DNA of 46,291 nt, filler included, from Streblomastix strix (lineage: Eukaryota), in NCBI GenBank assembly GCA_008636045.1. It is 2 parts of 2 records of this genome, joined end to end, with 100 filler letters (N's around TTAATTAATTAA, not from the genome) between each part and the next. Parts side by side here need not be neighbours in the genome. Positions count along the whole stretch, not along the records: positions 1 to 23,118 come from SNRW01000299.1; 1 more part is not named here. One strand, given 5' to 3'. Below the pieces are notes generated by a model that searched no databases, was not told the origin of the DNA, and worked only from the letters and a program-made list of their open reading frames with translations. Made by a program: the position numbers and the translations under genes. Positions 1 through 46,291 of the stretch are shown in pieces; the stretch's first letter is position 1, and each line of letters begins with the position of its first letter.

Positions 1-531
1 TATTATGTTTAATTAATAGATCCCTTATTTATTTACTTCCAAATGATGCTTCCCCATCTGATCTAATATTTGTAACGTACTCGGATTGAATTAGCGACTC
101 TAGAGCTGGGATTAGTGATCGTGTCTCTTTTGTTCGGGTTGGATAAATAATTAGGTACTTAGTGTTGACGTTGATAACAAAGAAGAACAGTAATTTGTTG
201 AAGAACCCTATATCAATTTCCCATGATCCTAATTGTGGAGAAAAGTTGGGCCTTTAATATTTTACCAACGGTTTCAATTTGTAATCTTTAATTTTTTCAT
301 GGGGTTAATATTAATATTGATTACTTTCATGTTATTTTACTTCTACTTTTATATAATTTTTGTATTGTATTCTTCTACATATAATTTATACCATTACTCT
401 ATACTTTTGCCTTAAAATTAATCTGATATTTTAATGTGTTTGTTAAACTAGTAATTAATGTTAGTGATAAAGTCCTTTATAGTTAACTTATTCGTTAACC
501 GATTTACCTTGTCAGTAATAAATTATTCCAT
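1..531 (-). pseudogene. Retroviral-like (rve) integrase, 3' part outside window, probable frameshift near 340
   Basis: Bases 301 to 1 read ...GSWEIDIGFFNKLLFFFVINVNTKYLIIYP...NIRSDGEASFGS, the first two Asp motifs of a DDE integrase. The upstream ATG at 531 is in a different frame, so the start is uncertain. Confidence 0.85.
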
Positions 532-625
532 TTAATTTAAATAAAAGGCGTTAGTCGAATTTCGGCCGACGAACAAATTGTGACGGTCAATTTCACCAAC
601 GGAATTACGTTGCTAGAACTTTACA

Positions 626-1448
626 TCAATTATATTATAGTTCTAATAGTAAATTATTATTCATTTCCATATATTATACAGGAACTTATCTACCAAAATT
701 ATCGAATAACTTAAATACAACTTCCTTATTCTACCCAATAACGTTTGTGTAAGATAGCATATTTTATCCCAATATTACTGGTGCATCAATTAAGTTCTAT
801 TTAAATACGTCATTACTAAATGAATTTTTATCCTACACCTTCATAGCTAGCCTTCTCTATTAATTGTTCACTGTTATTATTAACATCTGTGGATACTCCA
901 TGAAATTGACAATGAAAGGGCAAAATATAGGTAATGTTTAATGGTAGTCCTAAGTTTAATATTTCACTTTATAATTCCATGTTTCTAACTACATTTACTT
1001 TACACGATTGTTGTTCTCATATAGTTAATTACTATTGGTCAATTAAATATGTAAATTTTTTACTAAGTTCTATTTTTCCTAATTTATTTGGTAGTTCCAA
1101 CTTATCCCAATATAATTATTCTAATATCTCAGGTACAAATTATCCATAATCATTAGCGCGTTGTATACTAGTATAAATATAATCCCATTCATTAGCAAAT
1201 AGAGCTGATAAGGAAAATATTATTCTTATCGGATATGAATTAATTCAATTCGTTACTAATTATAAATTTGGCCCTTATACATTAATTGGTTATGTTTCAG
1301 CTAGTAATATTGATTCCCCATTAATCGTACATTATATTCCAAAATTATATCTAACACTAATGGACTTATTTTAGTCGTACATATGTGGTTCAACACTAGT
1401 TATAAAGTTATCTGTAGTAGGGTAATATAATCTAATTAACGCGATCAT
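626..1448 (-). pseudogene. Minor capsid (penton)-like protein, frameshifted
   Basis: The C-terminus ...PFIVNFMEYPQMLII...VVFKLFDNFGRQVPVQYMEMNNNLLLELQYN* resembles the Polinton penton C-terminal signature. ATG 1448 and the stop are in different frames. Confidence 0.65.
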
Positions 1449-1472
1449 TCGAAAGGCTACCTATAATTATTG

Positions 1473-1784
1473 TCAATAGATCCAGTAATGGTATAGAAAT
1501 GAATCAAGTTGTAAATTAATATAATTAATAACGGAAGAACAAATATCATCACCTATATTTTAGCCTAAGGTTTACTAATTTAATTATTTTTATGTATGCT
1601 CGTTTATGGCTGAATTAATGCTGATTGGTTCCCTATTAGTTGTATCAGGTAAACTAAAATATTATTCGGAATTATTGGCGAATTCTTTAAATTAATTATT
1701 CTTTAGGGCAATTACTTATGGGTTAAATTTATATCCCTAGTGTCCTTCTTAATTAACGTAATTATTATTAATATGAGTGTTCAT
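1473..1784 (-). CDS. Hypothetical viral protein, 103 aa
   Basis: ATG-to-TGA frame with TAR=Gln (MNTHINNNYVNQEGHQGYKF...HYWIY*), tightly packed between neighbours. Confidence 0.55.
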
Positions 1785-1790
1785 CTTAAT

Positions 1791-2057
1791 TCAGATTGGG
1801 GGAAGTTAATCAATAGCAGTTAATTTAAATTAATTATTCGATAATTATTCTTACACTATTACTTACTTATCTTCTGTAGATCTAATATTTAGGGTTATTT
1901 CAATGTAATCTTTGTTTAAATAGTACGTTAAGTTAATGTGAGCATTACAGATACTATTAACTTAAAATTAATTACTCCCCTAAGGGATAGTAGTTTACCA
2001 TTAAATAAATTCCTAATCTGTTGATGAAGAGAGTACTTTCATTCCTTATGCGGCCAT
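1791..2057 (-). CDS. Hypothetical viral protein, ~88 aa
   Basis: MAAQGMKVLSSSTDQEFIQW...IDQLPPI*. An alternative in-frame ATG lies at 2087. Confidence 0.5.
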
Positions 2058-2083
2058 TTATTTACAAAAATAATTTTTATCAA

Positions 2084-2677
2084 TCATAGTTACCATTACG
2101 CAATCTATCTATACTAATATTAATTTTTTACTCCATTAACATCCTAAGCACTTACAATTTCGTATTAACTATTACTTACTACTCTAGTATTTAACATTCT
2201 AAATTTTAAACCGTTGTGATAATAAATATTAAAATCCTGATCAAAACTATATCCTTCTAGATCGTGTCCTAGATATATATCTAAACGTTAACTTCCTTCT
2301 GGCAATTAATCAAAATACTAATAAGTTATTCCACGAAAATGGGATTTGTTCATTAAATTATCCCTATCACTAACCCAGCGTAAATTTTCAACATGATTAT
2401 CTGTTTTGATCTATGATTTATGATCAACAAATTAATAATTATTAGGATTAGGGATCCACTGTGTTGCTACAATTATATGTTTATAAACAAAACGGTGATA
2501 CTTTGGACCGAATTATAAATGTAACTTGATATAACTTTCTTCGCCATTTGTGTAGTGCGACAAGTGTTCTGCAACAATTCGCTAATTGTCACGCCTCCTG
2601 ATTTAATGAGGATAATTAACGTATATTTCGTATATATTGTTATATAACATTATTTCCCATTAATTATTATTTCCCAT
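2084..2677 (-). CDS. HNH endonuclease (NUMOD4/HNH_3, I-HmuI-like), 197 aa
   Basis: Uninterrupted frame containing YKHIIVATQWIPNPNNYQFVDHKSQIKTDNHVENLRWVSDRDNLMNK. Confidence 0.88.
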
Positions 2678-2773
2678 TTAAACAGTGGATAAAAAAATAA
2701 AAAAAATAAAAAAAATAAACGATTAATTTTACCAGACAGTTTTGGCTGGCTGAATTCCAGCTGGCCCCCCTTA

Positions 2774-3346
2774 TCAATAAATATCATATTAACTATATTA
2801 TTATTGCTGTTATTAGCGATAATATTATTGAGGTATTTATTCTTATTCTTCTTCACTTACTTCTTGTTTATTTTATACTTATTTTGGTTTCTATTTAACT
2901 CACTTCAACGCCTTTAATTTATTTTAATATTTCTCATTCTATTTGATTGCTTAAACGTGCTATTATTTTATAAATTTGTTCTCAGTTCGAAGTGAAATCA
3001 ATTCCTCTAAATCAAGTTGGGGATTAATATATTTAATTTGTGATTTGTTTTATACTTTCTTTTTAACAGGTTATGGTTTAATTTATTCCTATTATTCTTA
3101 TTCATCAAAATAATCACTTTCATTACTCGATTCTGAATCAAACAATTTCTGTTTTTATTTTTATGCAGTTCTTCTTGCTTACATCATTAATTTATTTTAT
3201 TAAACTTAAATAATTATTTTTAATCCTTTCTTACCATCTTCGAAACACTTAATTTGTTTCTTATCACGAATAAAATATCCACCATCAAAATATTCAATAT
3301 TTGTACCATTTCCCTTCATAAATTTATATGCTTGTGATTTGTCCAT
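2774..3346 (-). CDS. Hypothetical K/E/Q-rich viral protein, one internal TGA (2900-2902)
   Basis: MDKSQAYKFMKGNG...; the same frame and composition continue past the internal TGA to TGA 2774. Confidence 0.55.
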
Positions 3347-3377
3347 TAAATAATCAAGAAATCTTTATCGAATTTAA

Positions 3378-4082
3378 ATGATATGCGGAGTTGAAAGGAA
3401 TTTATTGCAGCTTTATAAAAGTAAAAAGTAAATGAAAGAACTGACTGACCCAAATAATTAATAAAGATTACAGTATATAGATAGTTTAATATCAGAAGCT
3501 ATTGAGAATGAAAATAACTAGCCCAACAATTAATCAAGTTAATCATAACGTTAGTTCAATAAAAACAAGTACACTGATGCTGATAGAACAACAGCTTAAG
3601 TAACCCCATAGGAAGTAATAGATAAATTAGTCCAGCCATCAATTTAGCCATCATTTTAGCCACTAGCCCAGCCAATAATTTAGCCATTAGTCCAACCGAT
3701 AATCATGGACAATCATTTAAACGCCTATTTGTCCCATCCTAATCTGGAGGGTATGAAGTTTGTAGTCGATTGTATATGGAGAACTGTTACACATAGAAAC
3801 AAAGGTGATGATTTCATTCTATCTTCTGATAATTTTATTAAATTTTGGTCTAGTAACATAGGAGAAGGAAGATGATATAGAAATTGTTTTAGAGGAAAGT
3901 ATTATTGCGACGCACTAATGCCTTAGTAAATAATATATAAAGAAGGAAATAGTTAGAGTTTTTGATGTACTGATAAAGAATTTTTCCATTAATACTACGG
4001 ATAATGTACTCTGGAATAGCGTGGAAAAATTATATAGAATCAATAAAGATCTAGTTAGATTAAGTTAAGTACCTGCAATTGA
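3378..4082 (+). CDS. Hypothetical viral protein with QPxx repeats, internal TGA at 3873 and 3963
   Basis: Single frame, ...LVQPSIQPSFQPLAQPIIQPLVQPII...; the TGAs sit in GEGR*YRNC and QSF*CTD. Confidence 0.55.
3628..3703 (+). repeat. Degenerate 12-bp coding tandem repeat (QPxx, about 6 units)
   Basis: (T/C)AGCCA recurs every 12 nt. Confidence 0.7.
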
Positions 4083-4132
4083 TCTTGACCCCACTGAGTT
4101 TTGAACATTAATTATTTTTGCAATTAATTTAA

Positions 4133-5178
4133 ATGGATGACCTTGAACTTCCTACCTAAGAACAATTATAAGCGATGAAAGAAGAACTAGATATAATAAA
4201 AGAAATCGATAATGAATAAAAATAATTCGAATTATTACGTGAGAAACTAACTCCCTACATTGAATAATAAATAATTAAGTATTTACTTATTTCAGTTAAT
4301 ATATTAGGAAAACGAGAGATATTGATTTATCAAATTTAATGACATTAGATATTAATCAAGCAGTAACAGGATTCAAATAATTTACACAATCAATATAAGC
4401 AGATAAATTTATCAAAATAATTGGAATAAATAACTAATTACTTCTAGGTAATGGTACTACTGCTGATGTAGATAAATTTTTTCCAAAACAGTATCCTCAT
4501 GCGATGGGTTAATTGATTATTGAACCGAGTGATACTATATTAGATTAGGGTATTAGGATAATGAAAAATAAAAATAATTGGGATAGTTTTGTTCTCACTG
4601 GCTGCAATATTGACCCTACGAATAGATATGGTGTAAGGAAAGTTGGTTCTACTTCATCATAATTTAGAATATAAAAATAAGAAGATTAAGCTTATGATTG
4701 TAAGGGCCTAATTATTGATTTCGATTGTTCATCACTTAAATTTAATAATTAAATTATATCCCCTCTACCTGATCCCCCTATTGATTATGCTACTTAATAT
4801 TCAATTGCTTATGGAATGTATGAACAACGTATATGGGGTACATTAACAAGATATAATGATAGAGTGTATATTTCTCTTCAAATAACACATTCTGATCTTA
4901 ATACATAAACGTATTCCGATTATACTATGTTTTCAATCAATAATAATGATATCAAACCTAAATTTACAGGAACAACTAGAAACATACCTATAAATGCAGT
5001 CTTGTTTGCGTAAAAAGTACTAGGTTATCCGATATATTGGAATGGTGCTATTCCTATTGATTGTTTTATTAACTCTAATGGTAATGTAATAATTAATACA
5101 TAGTGTTAAATTAATTTACCTGACGATTTTTGTGTATAGTTTTGCGATTCTAATGCCATACATAAATAATCAAGCTGA
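4133..5178 (+). pseudogene. Tail-fibre-like protein 1, frameshift near 4300
   Basis: LMTLDINQAVTGFKQFTQSIQADKFIKIIGINNQLLLGNG resembles phage fibre shaft motifs and is followed by a beta-rich head. ATG 4133 is out of frame with 4321-5178. Confidence 0.6.
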
Positions 5179-5208
5179 TTAAATTAAGCTAATTACAGCT
5201 CTTACTTC

Positions 5209-5269
5209 AGTCAGATAAAAAGCAGATTGCACCAACCTTTTATTTTTCAAAAATAATTTAAGTTTGACC
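5209..5269 (+). repeat. Dispersed ~60-bp viral intergenic motif, copy A
   Basis: AGTCAGATAAAAAGCAGATTGCACCAAC...TTTCAAAAATAATTTAAGTTTGACC. Confidence 0.85.
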
Positions 5270-5297
5270 TTTGGGCTAATTCAAGGGTTAATTTTAT

Positions 5298-6327
5298 TCA
5301 ATTTTATCTTTTAAATATATCGAAATTATTTAATGATTTGTTTATTATGATAAACTCGTATTTCTAAAGGTTGTTATAAATAATGATAAATTCCTATTCA
5401 TTCAATTCCTAAACATTATTTTCCTCATATATTTATTTCAAATCTTATTCTGATATGTTAGCCCCAACAGCAATAACATGGCTTAATACCCTCGTTGGTT
5501 TAAACAAATAGCTTGGCCTTTATGCGCAGAAGAATATGGTAATTTTGCTATGACGACTATCACTAACCAAATGTGTAGTTGATCTAGCTAGCTCACTAGT
5601 GTATTGTTAAATGTCCGTATTAGACTCAATATCATCAAATATCATTAATGTTGAAAGTAATGATGAATTAATTAATATAGGTATTTTTTTGAATTCGTAT
5701 TCACCATCTTGCTCTATTATTTTTAATTTTTTTGAATATTTAACCCCTTTAATTATCGGGGGAACATTGAATCGCATAATTGTTGTAGGCTAACTAAATT
5801 CGTTAATTATTTTTATACATTTCATTTGGAAAATATCCCGTAATCTATGTTGATTTTTATTTATCTGTTTTTTATTCTCCTCGTTCATCTTTTTATTAAT
5901 TATTTTTGACTATCGATTATTTCATTCTAGTTATATAATCTGAATCATATCTAATATCTCGTTCTTTTAACTTCCAATTCGTATAAATTTCTTTAACTTT
6001 ATATTTAATTTCTTCGAATTAAGGTAGAAAAGATTATGCTTCTGCGTAAGTTATATTAACTAACTTTATACCTTTATTATTTAAATTAATCGCCATTGTT
6101 TCATCTGGCCCAAAATTAGAGAAGTATAATATGTAGGGATTAATATATCGTTAATATAGTACAATTAATTTCGCCATTAAAGTTGTTTAACCACTTCCAA
6201 CCGATCCAACTATATAATGATTTGCGTTAATGAGAATGATAGAATGTGGGGCTAATGGCCTAATTTTATATTCCTCTAATAGTGATTAGTCGTTGAATGA
6301 TACTTAATTTATTTATTAGGTACTCAT
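5298..6327 (-). pseudogene. A32-like (FtsK-HerA) genome packaging ATPase, frameshifted
   Basis: Walker A YIVGSVGSGQTT (K to Q through AAA>TAA), Walker B TLMIFDD, and SDSRHSKITIFFCAQ (Arg finger and Gln sensor). Confidence 0.85.
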
Positions 6328-6710
6328 TTAAGTGAATATAAATGAATGTGATTAGTTTAATATAATTAGTTTTAAATTACTTATTTTATGGGATTAATTT
6401 TAAAGTATCGATTATCTCAATTAGTGTACCAATCTAATATATTTCGCTGATTAAACAATTATGGGGGTATCTGGACATAATATTAGTTCCTGTTAATATA
6501 ATTGTATATATAATTTAATTTTTCTGTGGTAGAAAGAAGATAAAATCAATTAACGAATCAACACTCAAATAATTTACCACCGAGTAATTGGAGTAATTAA
6601 TTAAGGAGGCAATCAAAAATAATGATATAAAATTAGCTAAAGAATATTGATATTAATTATATTTGAAGTTATTGAATAATTATCCCTGAATTAGCTATGA
6701 TTAATGTTCC

Positions 6711-6771
6711 AGTCAAACTTAAACTAATTTTGAAATTTTTTTCGTTGGTGCAATTTACCTTTTATCTGACC
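6711..6771 (-). repeat. Dispersed ~60-bp viral intergenic motif, copy B
   Basis: Reverse complement is GGTCAGATAAAAGGTAAATTGCACCAACG...TTTCAAAATTAGTTTAAGTTTGACT. Confidence 0.85.
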
Positions 6772-6990
6772 CAAATAATTGATGTAAAATGTTACCCTTG
6801 AAATTTCGTTGGACCCATTGATGTCGGCTCAAATTTGATACCAGCCCTTTATTTTTGTATACTTAAATGTAATAGATATAAGTGCTCACCAATTAATAGA
6901 GATCTGTTATTAGTTAATTAATTTCGACATAGATACAGTATTATTTGTAATATGTGAAAAATAAAAGTAGTAATTCAGGTGTAACATAAG

Positions 6991-8313
6991 ATGAAAATTA
7001 CCAACTATTTATAAATAATTAATCAGCATTGGTTTATGCCGATAAGTAGTGTATTTCTAATAGGAACAAGTACAGGAGCGCCATATATATAATTCTAAGT
7101 AACATGTAATACAAATGCTATGTAAACAATTGATTTGGTCCCTAACTATACCGTTAATGGAATCGTTGATTTATATGGTGTATTTACTGCATCATCTTAT
7201 GTATAACCAGCTTATAATATTTACTATGGAGTTGATTAGTTATTACATACTCATACTGGCTCTTACTCTTCAGCTGTTTATACAGAATGGATTCATGTGA
7301 TGACAGGTAGTGTGGTTATAACTGTTAATTTAAGTAATTAAAGCGAATTCTTTCCTTAACAAATTACTGAGATTCTAACGCAGGATATAGTTACCTCAAT
7401 TAGCGGTAGTTAAACATAGATACCAATGTCATATAATTTAGGTAATGGTGGAATAATAATTAATATGTTATAAGTTAATCCAACAGGTCGAAGTGCTAGT
7501 ACATATAATAATGGCATTAGAATCGGAAATTATAATAGTGAGTCATCATTATATTTAGGGTGTGCAACGACTGCTATAAATACTACTCAATCAGGTTAAT
7601 GGAAGATAAGTAAAACAAGTGATAATGCACTAACAATAAATCCTTCATCTTTACGGTAAGCTGACCATAGTGCTGGTCTAAGTATTAATAGTGATAGTTC
7701 AGTAATTAAATTTAATAGAAATGGATTAGTAGATGTTGGTATTGATTAAACAATCAATGGCAGAAAATCGTTCAAAAATAATCAATTTGAAATATAACTA
7801 ACTGAATCAAATTATCCATTAATTTTGTTCAATAATAACAATTATATAGAGTAATTATTAAATAGTAATGAAATGATATTAACTCTAAATACTAGTTATC
7901 CAGTTGGTATTCCATTATATATTAATTAACGGGAAAGTAATTTATGTTCATAATTTCCTGAATCTAAATTAGTTTAAAATTATGTTTTAAACACAGGTTC
8001 ATCAACTTCATTTGCAGGTGTTACTTCAGGTAATATTTAAATTTATCCTACAGCAACTAGTTATGATGATGGTTTGAGAATATCCAGATCTGATCCAGAT
8101 ACAGGTAACGCGACCATTTAATTAGGATGTAGTAGAACATCTAACACTGGTGCTATTGTAGGATAATGGTCAATATTTACTCCACCAAGTAGTTCTGAAA
8201 TTAATCCTTAAGGTTTTGCAATTGCAATATCATCTTAATCTGGCGATAATAATAGAGGATTACAAATCAGTACTGATGGAAACACATTAACTTTCAATGG
8301 TAGAGTACTTTGA
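6991..8313 (+). CDS. Tail-fibre-like protein 2, probably 5'-truncated
   Basis: ~440 codons, G/S/T/N-rich, with two internal modules (GIRI..LGC..GQW..GLxI..FN). Ends GLQISTDGNTLTFNGRVL*. Start uncertain. Confidence 0.65.
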
Positions 8314-8337
8314 AAAATAATATTTATTTTTATACAA

Positions 8338-8565
8338 ATGGATTAATTATTATAGATAGCGATCAAACTTGGATAAAAGATTAACGCGAACAATACCGAA
8401 ATGCATTATATTTATTAAGCTCTATTTGAACCAATAAAATATGAAGAAAGTGAAAATATAATTACTGAAGCAAACATAGAGGATGAAGGGGAATATATTG
8501 GAGATAAGAGTTAGGAAATAATAAATTATATAAATTACTTATCAATAATTACTTCGCATGAGTGA
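8338..8565 (+). CDS. Small acidic hypothetical viral protein, 75 aa
   Basis: MDQLLQIAIKLGQ...IITSHE*, directly after fibre gene 2. Confidence 0.5.
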
Positions 8566-8569
8566 AATA

Positions 8570-8999
8570 ATCAGATTTAATTTAATGAATAATAATTACT
8601 AAACTATTTATTTCCTACATCAGCAACAAAATTATTGTATATTTATTTTTCCTCATCATTTGTCTCTGTTAATATATACCGATTTAATTTTTTAGCTTGA
8701 GTACTTCTTAATTATTTATACTAATTATATTAACAAATACATTTATGATTATTTTAAGCGTAAATTTTATTAAGGTACTACTCTTGCTCTGCCTACTTAT
8801 TAAAAAATGTTAATTTTTATTATTGGTGGTCAAATTGTTATTTAATTTTTTTCAACTCATAGGATAATAATGGTTAATCTAATTAGGGCTACATTAAGTC
8901 CTTTAACTACTAAATTATTTCAGATATTAGATCTTAATATATATTATTTTTGGTTAATTGTTTGATTAATTATTTCAATTATATTATTAATGATTCCAT
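8570..8999 (-). pseudogene. Hypothetical coiled-coil viral protein, 3' end uncertain
   Basis: MESLIIQLKQLIKQLTKNNIYQDLISEIIQQLKDLM...; the frame degrades near 8660. Confidence 0.35.
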
Positions 9000-9025
9000 T
9001 TAATTAGTGTAAAAATAGTTTTGAA

Positions 9026-9220
9026 TCAATGATTAGTTAATTTTTTCGATTAATGTATATAATCAATTGGCTTTGGCTATAAATGTGTAGGCTTTATAAC
9101 AACAGCGTCACTTCTCAACTATGTTGAAGCTAACAATTTAGCTAAAGTATTAGGAACATAACCTGTTGCTTATTTTACACCACTTAATATTTTTGAACCA
9201 AAGTTCTTATTGGTTATCAT
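9026..9220 (-). CDS. Diverged paralogue of the pVI-like amphipathic peptide
   Basis: MITNKNFGSKILSGVKQA...; shares ~24 identical nt (9185-9208) with 9414-9437. Confidence 0.5.
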
Positions 9221-9254
9221 ATTTAAATATAAAAATAATTTATGGATTAATGTA

Positions 9255-9458
9255 TCATCGATTAAGGAATTTATTTGCCATTCCTGTTGCACCACCTACT
9301 CCTTTGGCTATCATACAAGCGGTTAAATTAATTACGCCTAATGGCCCTGAAACAGCACCCATAACTATATGAAGAACTGGAGCCACCCATTTAGCCGCAG
9401 AAGTTACCCCGTTTAATATTTTTGAACCAAAGTTCTTGAGACTTGACCAAAATCCTAT
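9255..9458 (-). pseudogene. Adenovirus protein VI-like amphipathic (membrane-lytic) peptide, start codon apparently ATG>ATA
   Basis: (M)GFWSSLKNFGSKILNGVTSAAKWVAPVL...GVGGATGMANKFLNR*; compare the adenovirus pVI helix WSGIKNFGST. Confidence 0.65.
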
Positions 9459-9491
9459 TTATATTAGTTTAAAATTTATTTCAATCAATAA

Positions 9492-11443
9492 ATGTCGTTC
9501 AGTGCTTCAGTTTATTTATCTCGTTTATCGTAAGCATCACATTCTGATTATGTTTCTTCATACTCTGCACTAAATGAAGTGCTAAGAACATTGACTATTG
9601 AACCTTAATCAATCGTACAATCTAGATAATAATTTTTTGATTAAGAAGTTAATACATTGTTTTCTAATGGTACTAAATAGACTCGTGCTCCATTAGGGGC
9701 TAGAGGTAGTGTTACTTGTTGCTGTGTTTAGACCTGTTAAGTTAATTGGACAATTACTATACCCGCTAATACTATAGAGATATAATTAAATAAAGTAATT
9801 GAGGCTAAGGGTATGTTATCTTATAACGAATATATGCGGGCTAGATCAAACTTTAATGGTTCTAAGACAGCTACAACTGCACTAGCCGATGAAATAAAAT
9901 AGGATACATAACATTATAATTGTAATGTAGTCATTAAATTTTGGTTAGGATTCTCTACAGCTTGTGGGCTATTCTAATAAATAGCAATTTGTCGTGATAA
10001 TACTAAATTATGGGAAACTTCTATTTACGCTAGAGAACAGGCTATAATATGTTCTAATTCGTTATTTGACCTTATCGTTAATAATAGTGTTACAGTTTCA
10101 CCATTATAGTGTATCGTTTAGTGTAAACGCCATTGCGGTGTGTTTATTGATATCCCATGTGATAATATTGATGCCAAAGGTGAAAATTTTTATTATCGAA
10201 TTCATGATCCTATTACATTTTCTAGGATATTAGATCTCAATTAATTGAACCCGATATTTAATGAATTCCCTGTTCTAACTAGAAACTACGCTTCATTATA
10301 TCCATAATTATGGATTACTGACCTCCTTCAAGATCTAAAAGTAGTTTGGTTAAATAAATCCCGTTATATTTACGATCAATATTTAGCTTACACTATGATT
10401 CTACCGAAGAAACCAGATATAATTACTTTACAAGATGATAGCGGAGATGTTAGCTATAATTACTATTCTGTTCGATTGATTAATTGTAAAGATTTGGATG
10501 ATGCAGCTACAGACCCAAAAAATAGTATTTAATAGCTTGACAACGCATTTTTCGAATATCTATCGATTCATAATTTATACTTCAACATGGAGAATAAAAT
10601 GGCGATAATTGATATGATTAGAGCTTAGAAAGTGATTTATTTTCCAACATAAGAACTTAAATCCTAGTCATCAAATTATCCAATAGCTCGATTTGAACCA
10701 ATTAGTGGGTAAATTTAGAGTATAATGTCCTTCTTTAACATCAAGGCTATGATTATGACCTTTGCTACGTAATAATATCCTACGTGGTTCTTTCCTATGT
10801 TATTCCACAACATGGACTTAATAATTGATTAACGACACGCTGTTCCTTCCTCTATGAAGCTCATACTTAAGCTACTAATGGTTCAATGTTTCAATGTTTC
10901 GTTTATCAGGATTTAGTTTCTCCCTCTAGTGATTTGTATCATTCACTTACTTTCAAGAACATTAATATAAATGATAAAAAGTATTGGTATGGTAAGAATG
11001 ATGGTCGTATACCCCTATAAGATAATATATTCTATAATACTTCTCTATTTACTGGTTCTAAATCAGTCAAAACGTATTATCCGAACAAATATATGCTGGC
11101 ATGGAAATTAGCTACAGATGATTCGTTCATAAGAGGATATAATAATACTAGAATAGGTGCGAGAACTAATATTCAAACTATATTAAATACTTAATTGATA
11201 ACAGGTATAGTGGATAATTACAAAATTGGCGATGATAATCTTATACCTGAAAATCAAAATACTTTAGCTGAATTTATGGGCACTAGAAGTTATCCCATGT
11301 GCTGGCAAACTGGATAGACCCCAATGTTACATTTCCTTTGTGACTCAATAATTAGAATTATGTTTGATGACAACCCTGAACAATAAGTATTAAATTTAGA
11401 AGTTATTGGAGAGATTGGTGGTAGTATGATCACAGCTGGTTGA
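9492..11443 (+). pseudogene. Major capsid protein (double jelly-roll), one frameshift near 10850
   Basis: ~650 codons, beta-rich, with KFWLGFSTACGLFQQIAICRDNTKLWETSIYAREQAII resembling parabasalid Maverick capsids. Start and stop are in different frames. Confidence 0.75.
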
Positions 11444-11495
11444 GAAGGCAGATTGCGCCAATCTTTTATTTTTCAAAATTATTTTTAGTTTGACC
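11438..11495 (+). repeat. Dispersed ~60-bp viral intergenic motif, copy C (overlaps capsid stop codon)
   Basis: GGTTGAGAAGGCAGATTGCGCCAATC...TTTCAAAATTATTTTTAGTTTGACC. Confidence 0.85.
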
Positions 11496-11989
11496 TAACA
11501 TTAATTATTACGCTAATACGGGGCTAATTTTAAGGGGCTAATTTTGATCCCTGAATTCGAATGTCAATATTTAGGCAGTCAAAAATAATAATATATAGTA
11601 TTTATGAAGTGGTGACCAATAAAATTACGATTATTCTATTTAAATTACACATTCATCGAAGCACTAGCGATAATAATCAGTTATCAGCATTAATCTATTA
11701 TTATTGCAATCTTATCGTTATTTTTCACTTGTTTCTATAATATTGTCGAATATTATTTTGAACTATTTATTTTATTAAAGAATTAATATTAATATTGATT
11801 TACCCTAATAAGGTATTAGATCTCCTCTATCGTAACTTAAATTACCAATTACATTATAATTTAGGTAATATTCGTTATAGGGACAACCTGATCCCGACAT
11901 TTATATACGATAAAAAAAGTTAATGGGGAAATTTAACCCTCTTGATTAATGTTTAAATTAGCCATGATTAGCGTAGTAATTAATGTTTC

Positions 11990-12050
11990 GGTCAAACTAA
12001 AATAATTTTGAAATTTATTTCGTTGGTGCAATCTGCCTTCTGAACTGACC
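11990..12050 (-). repeat. Dispersed ~60-bp viral intergenic motif, copy D
   Basis: Reverse complement is GGTCAGTTCAGAAGGCAGATTGCACCAACG...TTTCAAAATTATTTTAGTTTGACC. Confidence 0.85.
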
Positions 12051-12200
12051 TAAAATTAGTGTAAAATCGAACCGCCAATTTTCGATAGTCAAACTTTACA
12101 TATCTTACCTTCACAAGCATATTTTATTGCTGTCTCCCATATTGTTTTGAAGATAGAGTGCCAATTGATACCTAATTATTCTTTGATCAATTAAATTGTT

Positions 12201-15200
12201 TCATTCATCGGCATTTACTGTTGGCTAAAGATCAATATATTTTGTTGCTGATAATTTGTATATGAATGGTGCAGCTAATTAGCTCTGGGGTAATAGTATC
12301 ATTTTAGTGTGGATGCCAGTTAGATCATTTTTATTTAGGGATAATTTTGACATAATTCCATCTTTCTAATCTAAACGAGTATTTGTACACTTCATAATTT
12401 TTCCATCAATTGTATCTAATATATTTTATTTAGTTATCACATTTTATGACTAATTGATCCCTTTTAATTTAATTATTTCATTTTTGACGTTGATAAAATA
12501 ATTTTTGGTGGATAGTGCTATCATTATATCTCCTTCATTTTCAATCGCTAATCCTAATAACTTCTTTTATTCAATTAGATCGTCAGTTGTTGGAAAATAA
12601 TACTTAGCGTTCGTATCATAAAATTATTGATCAGTGATAATGTGGTTAAACCCCTGATTAATCGGTTAATTGATATTGCCCGCAACTGCGAAGTACATTG
12701 AATCTGAATCCCCTTCAATAAAATGAAACTTATTTTTATCTAAGCTCTTATACATAAAATTAAATATGAAATTAAGATACCAATACTTAGCACTATCTAG
12801 GGTAAAATATGCTTCCTATAATGGTGTTGTACATTTACATTTATCTGTATTATGTTAGACTGCGTATAAATTTTCTGTTAATTAACGTTCATTCATAAAA
12901 TTACCGGTTAAATATGAAATAATTGTGTCCGCTTTTGATCTTAATTTTACATTACTAAACTTCTCTGTATTCATCCCATTTGACCCATAGCTAGCGTTCA
13001 TAACTATTTTACAAAATTAATCTAGCCCCTTATTATTAGATCTAATCGCTTATATTCGCCTATTCATAAATATATTAACAAATATATTAAATTTATCGTA
13101 TTTGATAAATAAAATAAGTTAATTAATATCATCAATTACGAAATCACAGGTATCAATCAAGAACCATAAATAGTAAGAACAGAAGGACATAAATTAATTG
13201 TGAGTGGATAATAATTAAGTTAATTTTCTTTTTTCTTTATCTACCTTTATATTATTATTTTTCATAAAGTTATAGGTATAACTACCAATTGTTTGCTCGT
13301 TAGTAGTGTATGATAAATTTCTCAGGATAGGTGGAAAGTTAATGTGTTGATTAATATCAGATATATGTCCCTTAAGGGTAACGATAAATAATTAATCGGC
13401 CAGAGTATATCTAGTTGGGGAATTAATTATATTTAAACAACGTTATTTATTTTATTCATTAACATTGACCACCTCTTTTACTGTTCCTGCCATAAACAAT
13501 TTATGATTAGTGTACGGATTTAGATGGTGAAATTAACTGCTCATTACAGAAGGATATAATGAGTTAAATCCAGTCCTATAATATTAGTTACAATGTTATC
13601 TGTTTCAATTACTTTCACCTAATCTTCGTAAATTAATTTTTTTATTTTAGATTAGTTGGCAATATTTATTCGATTCATTACATTACTTAATCCACCTGTT
13701 ATCCCATCTCTAAGTGTTTGATATACTTATTAATTATTAGTTGCTGTAGGTAAATTATATTTTTAATAATAATTTTTTAATTATATCAAAAGCTTCATCT
13801 CTTGTTCGTTCCTATTACTTTTGACCTAGTTGCAATATAAACAGCACTATCTAACATAATTCTTAGTATGAGATAAGGAATTATTTATTCGATCTAATGT
13901 GAGCTTATTTTTAAATGAAAATTAATCGGAGCAAATATAACAAGGCTATCTAAATAATTTTTGGAAGTATTTATAGTCATTTTCTTTCATGTTATTATCA
14001 ATAGGTCGATGGGCTAACTTATCTTAGGACATATATCCTTCTACTTTAGCTTTCCAATATTAAGGTGTGAGATAGAATGGTGGATCAAACGTATTGATAC
14101 TATAATCGCCATCTAATTTAAATTCGTTATAGACCATAGAATACTTGACCGAATTAGCACAACTGGCCATCGAGATAAATTAAAACATATCTACTTTATA
14201 TTCAAAGAACAAAATAATTAAATTTTTTATCGGTTCAATCATTAACGACGTATTTAGTATATTATAATGTTTCAAATAATCCCATCTGTTATTGAATTAT
14301 TTGTAATCCTAGAGATAGGTTTAATATTCTTCATCTGTTATGGAACTATTTTTCAACGTGTTATTTAAATCAGATTAATTAAAGGGCGAGGTTTAACATA
14401 ATTATTTTTCATAGTCATCCTCCATTAGTTCGTATGGAAAGAGGCCCTTACTTTATTATTAGTTTGAGAAATTAAGTACAAATTAATTCAATGTCATTGG
14501 TGGTGCAACATATAAGAATGCGTCTAAAAATTTAAGTTTAACTGATAAATTATTGTCTGAAATAATTAACTATTTACAGAATTAAGAAATACCCAAATAT
14601 CTAGTTATTTTCCATTAGCTTGAGGATAGATATGGGAATAATAATGACATATCTAACTTAGCTGAATTATATCCAAGGATAGAAACTTCGATTGAATAGG
14701 GGATAAGTTCATCATCATAATTATTATCGTGTTTAATTTACACTGCTTCTTTAAATATTGTATCTAGCCATAAATTTACGAAGCTATTAGTTCGAATATC
14801 GAAATAAATTGATTTAGTACGTTTAGTTGAATAAATAGTGCTCGCAACAGATAGGGGGATTAATTTTTGATATTAATTTACTATCTTTACCGAAATTAGT
14901 ATTTATTTTTTATTCAAATGTTTCAAAATCATAAGTTATAAAGTATTAAGTTGGCTTAAATTCACTAGTTCTATTATGTGAGAGTAGATAGCGATATGTC
15001 TTATTTTACATGATATGCGGTACGAATGGACGTTGAATGTTATCCAACATAACTTATTTTTTAATTTAACCTTTATTTTGTCTACACTTTTCTATGTGTT
15101 TAACCATGTTCTCTTTAGTGTGTGAATCAACTTGAAAACAATGATTCTAGCAAATTGAGCAAAATAATAGTCCGGTAAGACGTTCTTTATTGGTCACTAG

Positions 15201-16400
15201 TAATGTGTGAATATTGATACCATTTAGTTCCTCAGATTAGATAAGTAATAAATTGATTTCGTTATCTCCTTCAATTGGAAAAGATTGGGCCAAATAATAG
15301 CGAAAAGAACTGTCGTCCTATTCAAAGGAAAATAAATTAACAGATAATTTAAAGTGTTTATGGATTAATTGTGTATCTGTTGCGCAATTGAATCCCTCAA
15401 ATGTTTTAGGATTAAATTTCCCATAAAAGAGAGTACCAATTTCCTTCATCTTATGTAGGACCTAATTATCGCTATATCTTTTTTCCTTACTATCTTTCAA
15501 CTAATATCTGGCAACTGCTTCAAGCACGCAAGTATTAGGATATGGGGAATTAACACATCTCAAACATTAATGTTTTTTGGATAAATGTAGCTTGATATTC
15601 GAAATTAATTTGCCACTGATTGGAAGTATATATGTTATTGCACTCATTGAATAAAGTGCTATATATTTTTCCTTTGTATTGGAAAATTTTCGCTCTTAAA
15701 TAGATATAATTAATGATTCAAAAATTTTTTATATAGTTCAATATCTTATTAATTACGTATTAATATTGGGGCTCTTCTTTCGGTCATTGATTCTCTAGGG
15801 ATAATATATTCTTATGTAATCCTTTCGTTATTATTTTTATTTCTATCTTTCCTCTCATATATGAACCCAAAATCAATGGCTAACTTATATATTTTATTAC
15901 CTATTGAAGCATGAATTGAATCGATGAAATCGTATATATTTAATACACTAGTTATTTAATTACTATAATGAGCTATTGTTATTAGGTTTCGTTCAACGTG
16001 ATTCTAATCTTAATAGTTAGATTTGGCATCATTGAGAACTTTAGTAAATTCTTCTAAATCTGCAGGATGAGCTAATAATAGTACCCCGTCATTAGCCAAC
16101 TTTAATAATTTACGTTAATGTGTTGTTTTAATTTGTTAATTAATTTTCTATAATTGAGGTTAGAATATTTACTATAATTTTGGTTCCAATTACTACTTTA
16201 TCTAGTTAAAATCAATTTTGGTTTATATTGGTTAACGTTGATAAAATTAGTTATCTAATCTAGCGTCAAGGTCAGTTAAAAATTAAGTTAAAATATTATA
16301 ATTGTTTCTTGATCCTTTACGTGGAAAATGATTTTTATCAAGTACCCGCTTTAATTATTACTTCAATTATTACTACGTTTTACTACTTTTTAATTACGGA
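12201..16400 (-). pseudogene. Protein-primed family B DNA polymerase with long N-terminal (terminal-protein) region, frameshifted; start approximate
   Basis: Exo motifs YDFET, ILGYNSAKLD and GLFPYE. Pol motifs LD(F)NSLYPSVM (frameshift inside), KIVMNASYGSNGMN and FIEGDSDSMYFAV. Confidence 0.92.
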
Positions 16401-16548
16401 GATATGATATAAAGTATATTTAATAATTAACCTTATGATAAGACCTTTTATAGTTATAAAAAAATATTTTTATTTTATCTAGGTAAGTTAAAGATAAATG
16501 AACTGGGTTCGCTATTTTCGTAGAGGCTTATTTTACAGGGTAAATTGG

Positions 16549-16610
16549 GGTCACGCTAGAAGGCAGATTGCACTTACCTTTAATTTTTCAAAATTAGTTA
16601 GGAGTTTGGG
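16549..16610 (+). repeat. Dispersed ~60-bp viral intergenic motif, copy E (subterminal, diverged)
   Basis: GGTCACGCTAGAAGGCAGATTGCACTTACC...TTTCAAAATTAGTTAGGAGTTTG. Confidence 0.7.
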
Positions 16611-16660
16611 GAAGAGCTAATTGCTACGCTAACTTCAGGTAGTTATTATTCAGAGAGAAA

Positions 16661-17071
16661 AGTAGTATAGTCACGGGAAAGTTGCTTCATTTAAAGTTAA
16701 ATTAATGGGCTAACTTATCCATTAAGGCCTTAAAAGCGTGCTAAAATAAAGGAAAAGAACTGATTCTTGATTAATTTGACCTTTATCTCCACATTATTCC
16801 TCTCTCTGCTTGGAGTTACGACAATAATACATTTCTCCCCATAAAATAACGTGAAATGGAGATAAAGATAAAATTAGCGGCGATTTTGGGTAAAACAATG
16901 GGAAAAACATTTCATAAAATAATTTACTACAGGAAATAAATAAAAACATAGGTCAAATTATTCAAGAATCAGTTCTTTTCCTTTATTTTAACACACTTTT
17001 GAGGCCTTAATGGATAAGTTAGCCCGTTAATTTAACTTTAAATGAAGCAACTTTCCCGAGACTATACAACT
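16661..17071. repeat. Large inverted repeat with ~120-bp arms (16661-16782 and 16950-17071) at the virus end
   Basis: Arms are reverse complements with roughly 7 mismatches. The spacer has a further CTTTATCTCCA/TGGAGATAAAG pair. Confidence 0.9.
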
Positions 17072-18035
17072 CAGGTTAGCACTTAACATCAAGTAATCAG
17101 CGAGAAACGGCTGCCGAAATAATGAGTTTGAGAGCTTTCACACAAGAAATATAGACTAACGTGACTCAGTACCTCAATCTACTGACAGATAATATGACTG
17201 TGATGTATTGCCTAAGAAAATGGAAAGCATGGAAACCCCTTTTTCATCTGGTTAGAATAATAGTATAAATATTCGAGGAGCTCAAGATAAGTTTAATAGT
17301 ATCTCACATCATTGGTCTGAACAATTCCCGAGCGGACTCTCTCAGTCGTCTAGCATGGTCCGGGGACTATATGTTGGATCCAATTATTAATCCGGAGGCT
17401 CTAAACACTTTCAAATTCTCTTCTACTTTGAATTGAATCTCTAATAGTACAAATAAACAATTGAAAAGGTATTGTTCCTTATCCTCGGATCACAACGCTA
17501 TAAAAGTTAATGCGTACACTATAAATTTGCGTCTAGAACCGGTCTTGATTCACCATCCGATTAATTAGATCCCGAAAGTTATCAACAAAATAACTAGAAA
17601 TCTTGCGAATGCCTTACTAATAATACCGGATTGGTGTAGGATTAGGTACTAACTATTAATAACAAATGTATCGAAGGAATTGAACCTAGGCCCATCACTT
17701 CAAGTACTTGTCCCAAGTAAGAGAATGCAGAACAACTATTTGTAGAAGTTACCTCCAGGAAACATCTTGGAACTACTAATGATAAGTCAGTGAACGGTGA
17801 AATTCTGTATGTCAATCTCCTGCATCTTGCTGGATTAACAGATGACGCTATTTTTCAGACTCTATGCACAATATCATTCGAAACTTGGAGGAAAAGAAGG
17901 ACAGCATTAACAAATTTAGTGGACTACATTGAAACAAATCTTATTGATATTGAACTATTACTAGGTGAATCTCCTGATATTCAAATTGTGAATGTACTCG
18001 TCAAATATTTAACCAATTTTTTGAACGACTACATT
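17072..18035 (+). mobile_element. DIRS-like tyrosine-recombinase retrotransposon fragment (RNase H, methyltransferase-like domain, start of next ORF)
   Basis: SSNQRETAA...LLTDNMTVMYCL...SHIIGLNNSRADSLSRL (RNase H), then RYCSL...LIHHPINQIPKVINKI...LIIPDW to TGA 17793. The overlapping ORF ...FETWRKRRTAL... is truncated. Confidence 0.85.
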
Positions 18036-18480
18036 CCCAATAAAGAAATAGAGGCTGTAATAAGGGTGAATGGGCTAAGCGAAACCCAGAGAGAAATGAT
18101 TTAGTTTTACTATTACCCAGAACCCTTCTTACAGCCTTCATTTTTATTATTCAATCAAATAAATCTAACTCGAACATTAATAAACAAATTTATTTCAATT
18201 ACTTCATTTTATTAATTTAACTCTCTTCATACACAACAACCCAGTTCCTTAACCCTTTGCAGCGAAGTTGTAGCCGAGTATGAGACGTCCGGATCAGACT
18301 CACTCAACTTTCTCAGCGATGAAACCGAAGATGAAACTCGGTCGCTCTGAAGCAGCAGGGATGTTTTGGCTATGTCGCAAAACGTTTAAAGCACTTCATC
18401 GCTTTTTGATACCAATTTTGTTTTGATTCTGGACCCATTAACAGCCACTATATTCCCAATAAAGAAATAAAGGCTGTAAA
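18033..18480 (+). repeat. ~28-bp direct repeat (about 18033-18060 and 18452-18479)
   Basis: ATTCCCAATAAAGAAATA(G/A)AGGCTGTAA occurs twice. Confidence 0.75.
18226..18460 (-). pseudogene. Orphan 3' fragment of a host-like helical protein gene
   Basis: GC-richer patch reading IGNIVAVNGSRIKTKLVSKSDEVLQTFCDIAK...RVKELGCCV*; no start seen. Confidence 0.3.
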
Positions 18481-20647: not shown

Positions 20648-21155
20648 TGCACAATTATTTCGCAAATATCTTAAAGAATAAAAATAATAAAATAAATAAT
20701 TATATTACAAGATGAAAATTATATTTATTTAATTTAGATATCAGATGCTCCCAAACAAGAATAATTGGAACAATCAATTACATATTTTTGAATATGTTTA
20801 AAATGTATATTTATCGGTGATTATATAAGTATTTATGTTTATTTATTTTTTTTAAATAAATTATAAGAAATAAAATTAAATTGAGTTTTTTTTTCTAAAC
20901 TCATTAGAATTAATCTATGATTTAGATTTAACTCTCAATCGATTAAAATTTTTGTTTGTTTGATAGAATCTCTCAAATAAATTCAAAACAACATATAATG
21001 AAAAAATTTATCTCTTAACTATATTCTTTTAAAAAAGTGAAAAATAAAATAATTTTATTTAGATGATTTGATTTTCTAATTGAAGAATTTGATTTTTATA
21101 CAAAATTTTAAATTAATGGGGTTTAATAAAATTTTTAACTATGCAATGTCAAATA

Positions 21156-22742: not shown

Positions 22743-23058
22743 TGAAATTTGAGGATTTTTTTGTTGCTAACAATCAATTTCCTTGCAAATAATAATCATT
22801 TATTATACAATTCAAGTATTAAACTATATTATATATACGTATTTATTAGATACATATGTCCGATCTCTCATCTTATAATATTAAAGGATCTTTGAATGGA
22901 TTAGGAACTGAAATTCTAAGTGAAGTAGCTCGTGAAATGATTGATATAAATAATCTTAAAAATGTATGAAAATTATATTTATTTAATTTAGATATCAGAT
23001 GCTCCCAAACAAGAATAATTGGAACAATCAATTACATTTTTTTGAATATGTTTAAAAT
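22743..23058 (+). pseudogene. Multi-exon gene fragment next to the assembly gap
   Basis: Short exons bounded by GT..AG, e.g. DLSSYNIKGSLNGLGTEILSEVAREMIDINNLKN|ISDAPKQEQLEQSITFFLNMFK. Confidence 0.35.
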
Positions 23059-23118
23059 GTATATATATTGTTGATAATTAATAAAAGAATATAATCAAAA
23101 TTGCATCATTGCTTGAAA

Positions 23119-23218
23119 NNNNNNNNNNNNNNNNNNNNNNNNNNNNNNNNNNNNNNNNNNNNTTAATTAATTAANNNNNNNNNNNNNNNNNNNNNNNNNN
23201 NNNNNNNNNNNNNNNNNN
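23119..23218. other. Artificial 100-nt contig linker (N run with TTAATTAATTAA)
   Basis: 44 N, TTAATTAATTAA (23163-23174), 44 N. The two sides need not be adjacent in the genome. Confidence 0.95.
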
Positions 23219-44900: not shown

Positions 44901-46183
44901 CACTATTTTTATGTGATATTGATGTTTTTGAAGATAAAATTGAACGAGATAGAGATTTATGAGATTAATTATTATTATTAAATTATTCTTATTCTTTAGG
45001 AGAAGATGATCTTGATTTTGATTGTGAATGAGATTATGATCGAGATATTGATTATTTATTATGAAGAGAAGTTGATGCAGTAGGAGATCTTGACCGAGGA
45101 AATTTAGATACTGACTATAATCTATCTTTATTTTATTATTCTTATTCTTATTGCAGTTTTACTGAAATTGAAGAAGAAGATTTTTAATTTTATTATTTAT
45201 TTAATTATTTATTACTTGACTCTTATTTAATATTGTTATTATTTTCAGATTATTCTTTTTCATCGTCATTCATCTCAATATATTCCTGTTTATTATTAAT
45301 ACTTTATTTCTTTATTGATTTACTTGATAATGATTATTAAATTGGATGAGGAGGTCGATTATTCTCTAATTAATTATTATTGTTGTCTTTTTAATATTAT
45401 TATGAAGAAGAAGAAGAAGAAGATACTAATGTTGTAGTTGATCGTACATTAAGTTTTTATTTAATTTATTTCTTTAAATCCTCTTTTTCTTTTTCTTCCC
45501 CTTTTACATTAATATTTTCTTTTTCTGACTAAATATCTTTCAAACTTTATTTATCTTTGAACTATTAGCTTTATTATGAAAGATTACGTGATAATGATTA
45601 TTATTTTTCATAACTTTCCTATTTTCTTATGTATTATTTTTCTATATATTACTAGTCTCTTTCTTTCAATCTTTCTAATAATTATCTTGATTATTCCCTA
45701 TCTTTCTATTATATCTCTTTATCTTTCTCAAATTCATATTTAAGTTATCTCTTTTTATCTTAATCAATTATATCAGTTTTTTAATTTTATTATTATTATG
45801 CTTATTCTTTTTCTTTCTCTTTTACTTAATCTCTCTATTTTGCTCTTTCATCCAAAATTGATTTTAATTTTTATTCTCTTAAATCTTTTGCCTTTTCTCT
45901 AAGATCTTTCTCTCTCTCTTTCTATCTTTCTCTTTCTTTATTTTTATTCATATCTATTTCTATCTATTTTTCTATTCTCTCTTTTTCCTTCTATTTTTCT
46001 ATTCTTTCTTTTTATTTCTATTTTTCTATTCTTTATTTATCTTTCTCCTATTTCTGTTTCATTTCCATCTCTTCTTATTCAATTCTTTCTTTTTCTTTCT
46101 CTTATTATCTGAGTTCTTTTTCTTTTTATCTTCTTTCTCTTAGTTTATCTGCAATTGTTTTCTTTTTCTATATTTCTTTCAAT
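41953..46183 (-). CDS. Large low-complexity protein (E/R/K coiled coil, then Q/S/P-rich), 5' end missing
   Basis: Long TAR=Gln frame ending ...RAKEIAIEDLVE*; no domain recognised. Confidence 0.75.
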
Positions 46184-46291
46184 ATAATAATTAATTAGAG
46201 AATAATCGTCCTCCTCTTCCCATTTAATAATCATTATCAAGTAAATCAATAAAGAAATAAAGTATTAATAATAAATAGGAATATATTGAGA
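45273..46291. repeat. Inverted duplication: 46184-46291 is the reverse complement of 45273-45380
   Basis: 108 nt with about 4 mismatches, running off the window end. Confidence 0.88.

What the first reader, a model, noticed from the sequence alone, without database searches (positions are those of the whole stretch)
5209..16610. Five copies of a conserved ~60-bp motif punctuate the viral genome at gene boundaries
Seen: consensus GGTCAG..AGAAGGCAGATTGCACCAAC..TTTCAAAATTATTTTAGTTTGACC at 5209(+), 6711(-), 11438(+), 11990(-) and 16549(+), each followed by a GCTAAT-rich tail. The ends (GGTCA/TGACC) are self-complementary. Copies lie just after the fibre-1, capsid and pPolB stops and near the terminus. 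A/B and C/D face each other around the ATPase block and a ~0.5-kb block. Inference: a structured 3'-end/termination signal, a packaging or replication signal, or recombination sites that let gene cassettes invert or swap. If TGA is ambiguous, a 3'-end signal right behind the stop might also help define real stops.
Basis: partly seen in the sequence, partly recalled or inferred. Interest (0 to 1): 0.72.

Follow-up and report, generated by a model that had tools for sequence, protein, structure and literature searches.

The report
Repeated boundary motif in protist virus
A virus lodged in the genome of a termite-gut protist carries five copies of a 60-110-base DNA motif, in alternating orientation, in the gaps between its genes; it shows no sign of folding as an RNA and likely works as a protein-bound signal that marks where viral transcripts end.

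Summary
The five copies are real (0 of 100 shuffles give any) and confined to a decayed Polinton-like endogenous virus whose capsid homologs are all labelled Streblomastix strix. The conserved part is two arms around a fixed 8-nt spacer, plus a tail of TAAT boxes about 11-12 bp apart. Orientation alternates + - + - +. A diverged sixth copy lies at 541-633. Only three copies follow a same-strand stop, and D follows a 39-aa ORF, not pPolB. New here: spacer positions 3-8 hold AATAAA, the oxymonad poly(A) signal, forwards in D and reversed in A and C. Facing pairs therefore have unlike spacers, which argues against recombinase inversion of the ATPase or 0.5-kb block. Contigs from one sample show tandem, absent and relocated copies in sister elements, and no large excess of the motif over viral genes. 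Best reading (0.4): a protein-bound DNA boundary element with a built-in poly(A) signal, built like baculovirus homologous regions. No RNA data and no independent relatives were available, so function is inferred.

The parts
5209..5296 (+). Copy A: core, T-type spacer (TTTATT at 5239-5244, i.e. AATAAA on the minus strand) and two tail boxes; lies between the convergent stops of fibre-1 (5178, +) and the ATPase (5298, -)
6670..6771 (-). Copy B: A-type spacer (AAAAAA at 6736-6741) and four tail boxes; tail faces the stop of a 102-aa ORF (6342-6650, +); 5' side lies about 95 nt from the fibre-2 start (6867, +)
6772..6855 (-). Diverged tandem partner upstream of B (shortened CCAAC-GAAA-TTTCAA core and ATTTTACA box); similar to the 541-633 copy
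   Evidence: (I25)
11438..11545 (+). Copy C: begins in the last codon and TGA of the capsid gene; T-type spacer (11465-11470); four tail boxes
11547..11900 (-). Content of the C-D block: an ORF of about 118 aa starting at TAAATG, with no stop of its own before copy C in this decayed copy; no homolog found, so its status as a gene is open
   Evidence: searches 39 and 61 empty
11930..12050 (-). Copy D: closest to the others; A-type spacer with AATAAA at 12014-12019; four tail boxes; 38 nt behind the stop of the 39-aa ORF
12089..12208 (-). 39-aa ORF overlapping the pPolB stop; deeply covered in sister elements; 4 of the 6 listed substitutions fall on third codon positions
16549..16640 (+). Copy E: most diverged; spacer TTAATT; no TGACC end; two tail boxes; about 70 nt upstream of the pPolB start (about 16476, -) and 20 nt from the terminal inverted repeat
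541..633 (+). Diverged sixth copy F (left arm ATTTCACCAAC, no intact right arm) between the integrase start (531, -) and the stop of a minor-capsid-like ORF (626, -; label recalled)
16661..17071 (.). Inverted repeat (141-nt arms, 89%) beginning AGTAGTATAGT; probable element terminus or mini-derivative (AG/AGT termini of Polintons recalled); carries GGGCTAA and TTTGACC boxes; no target duplication seen
1..17071 (.). Host element: decayed Polinton-like endogenous virus read with TAA/TAG=Gln (rve integrase, HNH, ATPase, capsid, protein-primed polymerase); left end is off the contig

Best explanation
The motif is a virus-specific, dispersed non-coding repeat that likely acts as a protein-bound DNA boundary element, with a built-in poly(A) signal, where viral transcription units end or meet. 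Shown: two conserved arms at a fixed 8-nt distance, a strand-polar tail of TAAT boxes about 11-12 bp apart, alternating orientation, no stable fold, and AATAAA at spacer positions 3-8 in either direction. Inferred: host or viral DNA-binding proteins occupy the arms and phased boxes; the spacer supplies the AAUAAA/AAAUAA signal to whichever gene runs into it (ATPase at A, the small ORF at C, the pPolB/39-aa unit at D); the complex stops read-through into the next unit and may also enhance nearby starts (B, E, F). As a dispersed repeat it would secondarily serve as a substrate for ordinary homologous recombination, giving the tandem, absent and relocated copies seen in sister elements.
For: Of 9 gaps over 40 bp in a hand-made gene set (8 internal, plus the terminal one), 5 hold a copy and 1 the diverged copy; 2 of the other 3 look coding. 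Five of six copies adjoin at least one stop, and A and C sit between convergent ends. Three divergent gene pairs, including the capsid start, have gaps of 7-14 bp and no motif, so it is not the promoter. The motif follows same-strand stops of four different genes: fibre-1, capsid, the 39-aa ORF, and in a sister element the ORF ending at 9026 (joint 6769-9025). AATAAA is perfect in A, C and D, where an ORF on that strand runs towards it, and one base off in B and E, where none does. AAAUAA and AAUAAA are the putative poly(A) signals of the oxymonad Monocercomonoides exilis (PMC8767320, passages). The first two tail boxes sit at +50/51 and +61-63 from the core in all five copies. The arms hold short palindromes (GCA-N3-TGC, TTG-N3-CAA). 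Depth on the core (25,000-33,000) is about twice that on the adjacent viral ORF (12,000-18,000), with flanks at 70-430.
Against: No RNA evidence at all. One convergent pair (8565/8571) has no motif, so it is not needed for 3' ends. E has no stop beside it. The + strand genes ending at A and C have a conserved hexamer only in A (AAATAA). AATAAA occurs 2.8 times per kb per strand here, and both spacer correlations are 1-in-10 events with five related copies. The partner ORF at C has no homolog and no own stop. Some sister copies lack the whole block (joints 6689-6849, 11916-12090, 545-626). A poly(A) signal alone does not explain conserved GC-containing arms. Depth of contigs is not copy number, and all runs are one sample.
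Confidence: 0.4

Rival explanations
1. Enhancer or replication-origin repeat of the baculovirus hr type, with no role in 3' ends; the AATAAA is incidental A/T-tract.
For: Dispersed intergenic copies in both orientations; tandem cores in sister elements (joints 12032-11999 and 12039-11954); phased boxes; similar boxes in the terminal repeat; B, E and F lie 55-100 nt from the starts of fibre-2, pPolB and integrase. hrs act as origins and Pol II enhancers (PMC1976136, passages).
Against: Protein-primed replication starts at the termini, so internal origins are not needed (established knowledge, recalled). No 30-bp palindromic core. The capsid start has no copy nearby; A and C lie between stops.
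Confidence: 0.2
2. Site-specific recombination sites that bound exchangeable gene modules, as pdif sites do in Acinetobacter plasmids: two unlike arms, a fixed spacer in two incompatible types, and alternating orientation, so that modules are swapped or excised but not inverted.
For: Strict + - + - + alternation; spacers match 7-8 of 8 among same-orientation copies and 1-3 of 8 between opposite ones, while right arms match 10-11 of 11. All 3 long-range joints among the 15 shown have one end at a motif edge. In dif modules C and D types alternate and only like spacers recombine (PMC13141974, abstract and passages).
Against: No recombinase found in the 17 kb held (the left end is missing). The inner arm ends are not palindromic as in dif sites. 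Joints map to motif edges, not to the spacer; 6769-12089 is explained by cross-mapping between copies, and 6769-9025 has a motif on one side only. The strand-spacer link has p = 0.1. F and A are both on the + strand.
Confidence: 0.13
3. A small selfish insertion (MITE- or SINE-like) tolerated only between viral genes, which itself creates the gaps.
For: Absent alleles at three loci in sister elements, each removing the block between a stop (or near it) and 14-19 nt before the next start; genes without the motif nearly abut.
Against: No target-site duplication; homology runs past the supposed GGTCA/TGACC ends on both sides; core and tail occur separately (loose ends); no copy in the 29 kb outside the element; depth only about twice that of the adjacent viral ORF; no tRNA-like head found. 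The 'absent' joints may hold other letters.
Confidence: 0.12
4. A structured RNA (terminator hairpin, ribozyme or stability element) closed by the GGTCA/TGACC stem.
For: Four of five copies can form a short terminal stem; 76% of cells pair.
Against: RNA z-scores -0.93 to +1.43 in 15 folds; DNA z-scores -1.05 to +0.71 in 10 folds; consensus energy about -1 kcal/mol with 0 compensatory pairs on either strand; no Rfam hit on any copy; sister variants lack TTTGACC.
Confidence: 0.05

Closest known systems
Baculovirus homologous regions (hrs)
   Same: Dispersed, AT-rich, genome-specific intergenic repeats; variable number of core units per locus; rearrangements nearby (PMC1976136, passages).
   Different: No central 30-bp palindrome; mostly one core per locus; polar tail of phased boxes; AATAAA inside a fixed spacer; host is a Polinton-like virus of 17 kb or more that should replicate from its ends.
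pdif sites and dif modules of Acinetobacter plasmids
   Same: Two unlike arms, fixed-length variable spacer, alternating orientation around one- to few-gene blocks (PMC13141974).
   Different: Spacer 8 nt with only two types; arms lack inner palindromy and any XerC/D likeness; no recombinase found; no crossover in the spacer shown; eukaryotic nuclear virus.
Promoter motifs of virophages and Polinton-like viruses (mavirus TCTA, type-specific EMALE motifs; AAAATTGA in PgVV)
   Same: Repeated cis motifs in the intergenic DNA of related elements (PMC8547959; bioRxiv 10.1101/2022.07.28.501842; passages).
   Different: Those are short and sit upstream of ORFs on the coding strand; this one is 60-110 bp, absent from three divergent promoters and present between convergent stops.
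Oxymonad poly(A) signal AAAUAA/AAUAAA
   Same: Same hexamer, in U-rich context, 53-69 nt behind the ATPase and 39-aa stops.
   Different: Here it is embedded in a long conserved repeat and occurs in both directions relative to the arms; cleavage sites are unmapped.
Hairpin 3'-end signals of Mimivirus and Sputnik (recalled, no call)
   Same: Repeated at gene ends of a related class of virus.
   Different: Those are defined by stable hairpins without sequence conservation; this is conserved in sequence and does not fold.

Membership tests
Polinton-like endogenous virus, Metamonada capsid group (host element) | Capsid, ATPase, protein-primed polymerase and integrase genes read with TAA/TAG=Gln | tested here: met
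   Capsid: best 120 of 257 homologs all S. strix, several named major capsid protein; rve E 3e-4, below cut-off; ATPase-like and DNA polymerase weak PHROG hits; group described in PMC10120064 section 9.
Polinton-like endogenous virus, Metamonada capsid group (host element) | Paired terminal inverted repeats and target duplication | tested here: inconclusive
   Only the right end is in the contig; a local inverted repeat at 16661-17071. Capsid model too poor for a fold match (pLDDT 40.7).
Baculovirus hr-type repeat | Dispersed homologous intergenic loci with variable unit number | tested here: met
   Five copies plus two diverged ones; tandem cores in sister elements.
Baculovirus hr-type repeat | Imperfect palindromic core of about 30 bp | tested here: not met
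   Only 9-bp palindromes in the left arm; no stable fold.
Baculovirus hr-type repeat | Enhancer and origin activity | not testable with these tools
   Needs reporter and replication assays.
pdif / dif modules | Alternating orientation of sites with two unlike arms and a fixed spacer | tested here: met
   A-E alternate; 8-nt spacer in 5 of 5.
pdif / dif modules | XerC and XerD binding sequences and a cognate recombinase | tested here: not met
   Arms unlike the pdif table; no recombinase family hit in the element ORFs scanned; left end missing.
pdif / dif modules | Crossovers within like spacers | tested here: inconclusive
   Short contigs; 15 of 292 joints shown, ends at motif edges.
Structured RNA terminator or ribozyme | Stable, covarying secondary structure or Rfam match | tested here: not met
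   (only five sequences)
MITE | Terminal inverted repeats bounding the homology, with target-site duplication | tested here: not met
   Homology passes the 5-bp ends; no duplication.
MITE | High copy number outside the host element | tested here: inconclusive
   0 copies in 29 kb outside; depth about 2x the adjacent ORF; no whole genome held.
Oxymonad poly(A) signal | AAUAAA/AAAUAA 20-30 nt before the cleavage site | not testable with these tools
   Hexamer present in 3 of 5 spacers; no RNA run listed.

The most novel reading that the evidence does not exclude
A eukaryotic DNA virus builds its genome from exchangeable gene modules bounded by alternating recombination sites with two incompatible spacer types, a dif-module-like cassette-exchange system in which the spacer doubles as a poly(A) signal.
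Probability: 0.12. Interest if true: 0.85.

Novelty: new variant of a known kind. Interest (0 to 1): 0.42.

Why it matters
How integrated Polinton-like viruses start and end transcripts in the host nucleus, and why their gene order is so variable, are open questions. S. strix holds hundreds of related capsid genes (257 hits), so one 60-bp motif gives a handle for both questions with existing assemblies. If the boundary reading holds, it is a compact cis element of a nuclear Polinton-like virus in a metamonad. If the recombination reading holds, it would be a cassette-exchange system in a eukaryotic virus. I found no description of the motif in searches of the open-access library; the one paper that covers S. 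strix elements has no occurrence of 'motif' or 'promoter' in its main text (PMC10120064; its supplements were not read).

Tried and rejected
No whole genome is held. IMG/VR motif scan: 1 match, a chance one in a phage-like contig. GTDB scan with a strict pattern: 0. Protein-based locus searches found no relative in IMG/VR or GTDB. No RNA holder listed. Homolog searches for the motif-spanning frame and for the C-D ORF were empty within their length limits; the profile search of representatives could not be run. Capsid model pLDDT 40.7, no fold match. No tRNA. Only 4 of 120 capsid gene models touch other parts of the window, and none the motif. One search used a mis-registered stem and was replaced. 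Earlier-findings look-ups gave nothing on this genome and only bacterial REP/BIME-like repeats. Considered from memory and dropped for lack of the required pairings: hairpin, HDV-like and hammerhead ribozymes, snRNA-like RNA, ENE, tRNA-derived SINE. Resemblances to W-box, Myb, C/EBP and homeodomain sites are recalled and untested.
Full report
Setting. The window has almost no long ORFs in the standard code and many when TAA/TAG are read as Gln. Bases 1-17071 hold an rve-like integrase, an HNH nuclease, an ATPase, a capsid gene and a protein-primed polymerase. The best 120 of 257 capsid homologs are all labelled Streblomastix strix; one is 100% identical over the aligned part and lies on a 23,118-bp contig, the length of the window's first N-bounded piece. 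Endogenous viruses of S. strix that use this code are known (PMC10120064, passages and section 9). This copy is decayed: capsid, ATPase and polymerase are each split over frames, whereas P0002 is a whole 652-aa capsid standing for 29 sequences.

The observation. The core pattern matches 5 times, and never in 100 shuffles. A profile of the five finds nothing else below E 0.22, including in the 29 kb outside the element. A diverged sixth copy lies at 541-633, and a similar stretch lies in tandem upstream of B.

Anatomy. The constant part is a left arm ATTGCACCAAC, an 8-nt spacer in 5 of 5 copies, and a right arm TTTCAAAATTA (10-11 of 11 identical in all pairs). The left arm holds two short palindromes. 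The tail holds TAAT/TAAC boxes; the first two lie at +50/51 and +61-63 from the core in all five copies, and further ones follow about 10-14 bp apart. GCTAAY occurs 9 times on the motif strand and 0 times on the other, against 0.37 expected. Orientation alternates + - + - +. The spacer has two types: CTTTWATT in A, C, E (all +) and GAAAWAAA in B, D (both -). Positions 3-8 read TTTATT in A and C, its reverse complement AATAAA in D, and one base off in B and E. With five copies the strand-spacer link is a 1-in-10 event.

Not a structured RNA. Single folds are no better than shuffles (15 RNA folds, z -0.93 to +1.43; 10 DNA folds, z -1.05 to +0.71). Consensus folds hold 3-4 pairs with no compensatory change. 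Five sequences give little power for covariation.

Position. A lies between two convergent stops; C overlaps the capsid stop; D follows a 39-aa ORF by 38 nt, not pPolB directly. B and E sit head-to-head with the fibre-2 and pPolB starts; B's tail faces the stop of a 102-aa ORF inside the A-B block. In a hand-made gene set, 6 of 9 gaps over 40 bp hold a copy or the diverged copy; two of the other three look coding. Three divergent pairs (gaps 7-14 bp) and one convergent pair (5 bp) have none. So the motif is not the promoter of the capsid gene, and it is not required for every 3' end.

Sister elements. Three DNA runs of one sample were laid on the element; they are short contigs, depth is not copy number, and they may be the window's own source. 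On D alone, depth is 25,000-33,000 on the core, 12,000-18,000 on the 39-aa ORF and 70-430 on the immediate flanks. That fits a few copies per element rather than a genome-wide MITE. Loose ends (12 of 49 shown) include variants without TTTGACC and a tail without core. All 3 joints concern the motif: two tandem duplications and one absence. In one search (15 of 292 joints shown), 6769-9025 puts a motif 17 letters behind another gene's stop, 6769-12089 is a D-type locus mapped onto B, and 6689-6849 and 545-626 skip B and F. No inversion of the A-B or C-D block is among the rows shown; contigs that break at repeats make this a weak test.

Mechanism. Fixed spacing, short palindromes, phased polar boxes and lack of fold point to double-stranded DNA read by proteins (inference). 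The position behind stops of four different genes, and an AATAAA that is intact where an ORF runs into it, point to 3'-end formation; AAAUAA and AAUAAA are the putative signals in the oxymonad M. exilis (PMC8767320, passages). I put this boundary reading at 0.4. A pure enhancer or origin like baculovirus hrs gets 0.2. A dif-module-like exchange system gets 0.13: the alternation and two spacer types fit, but no recombinase, no inner palindromy and no crossover in a spacer were found. A selfish insertion gets 0.12, a structured RNA 0.05. Inversion between facing pairs is disfavoured under any recombinase that needs like spacers (1 of 8 and 2 of 8 matches).

Limits. No whole genome, no RNA run and no relative with DNA context in IMG/VR or GTDB were available; the metagenome scan was uninformative. 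Searches found no description of the motif; promoter motifs of related elements are short and upstream (passages). Supplements of PMC10120064 were not read and might annotate these elements.

Verdict. A real, probably undescribed cis repeat of an oxymonad Polinton-like virus: new variant of a known kind, interest 0.42. A genome-wide table of orientation, spacer type and neighbouring genes would separate the main readings.

Noticed in passing
window 16661-17071: 411-bp inverted repeat with AGT-type ends at the element's right end; both a left-type and a right-type terminus are present, so it may be a mini-derivative or a rearranged terminal repeat; no target duplication.
   Followed up: partly
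window 12089-12208 (-): Unannotated 39-aa ORF overlapping the pPolB stop, deeply covered in sister elements, with mostly third-position changes.
   Followed up: partly
window 1-17071, gene starts: Most plausible viral starts read TAAATG or AAATG, like the poxvirus late initiator (recalled); TAAATG is no more frequent per ATG than in the rest of the window (5.9% against 5.3%), so it may be a host start context.
   Followed up: partly
window 17072-18350: Fragments resembling the RNase H and recombinase N-terminal region of a DIRS/Ngaro-type retroelement abut the viral end (recognised from recall; no Pfam or PHROG hit for 17220-18347). Ngaro elements are reported to favour virophage intergenic DNA (PMC8547959).
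   Followed up: partly
window 13544-14932 (-): An endonuclease VII-like domain lies inside the polymerase gene (PHROG E 1e-6).
   Followed up: no
window 9026-9480 (-): Two small Gly/Ala-rich ORFs share a duplicated 34-bp stretch (9175-9208 and 9404-9437, 91%); amphipathic, possibly membrane-lytic peptides (recalled analogy).
   Followed up: no
window 45273-46291: Inverted repeat with 108-nt arms (96%) at the far end of the window, 803 nt apart.
   Followed up: no
window 20681-20824 and 22935-23078: 144-nt direct repeat (88%) 2,254 nt apart, outside the element.
   Followed up: no
window 23119-23218: Two runs of 44 N around a 12-nt palindrome: the window joins at least two separate contigs.
   Followed up: yes
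P0033, P0040: S. strix capsid gene models that run into HNH or fibre-like sequence, hinting at other gene orders in sister elements.
   Followed up: no
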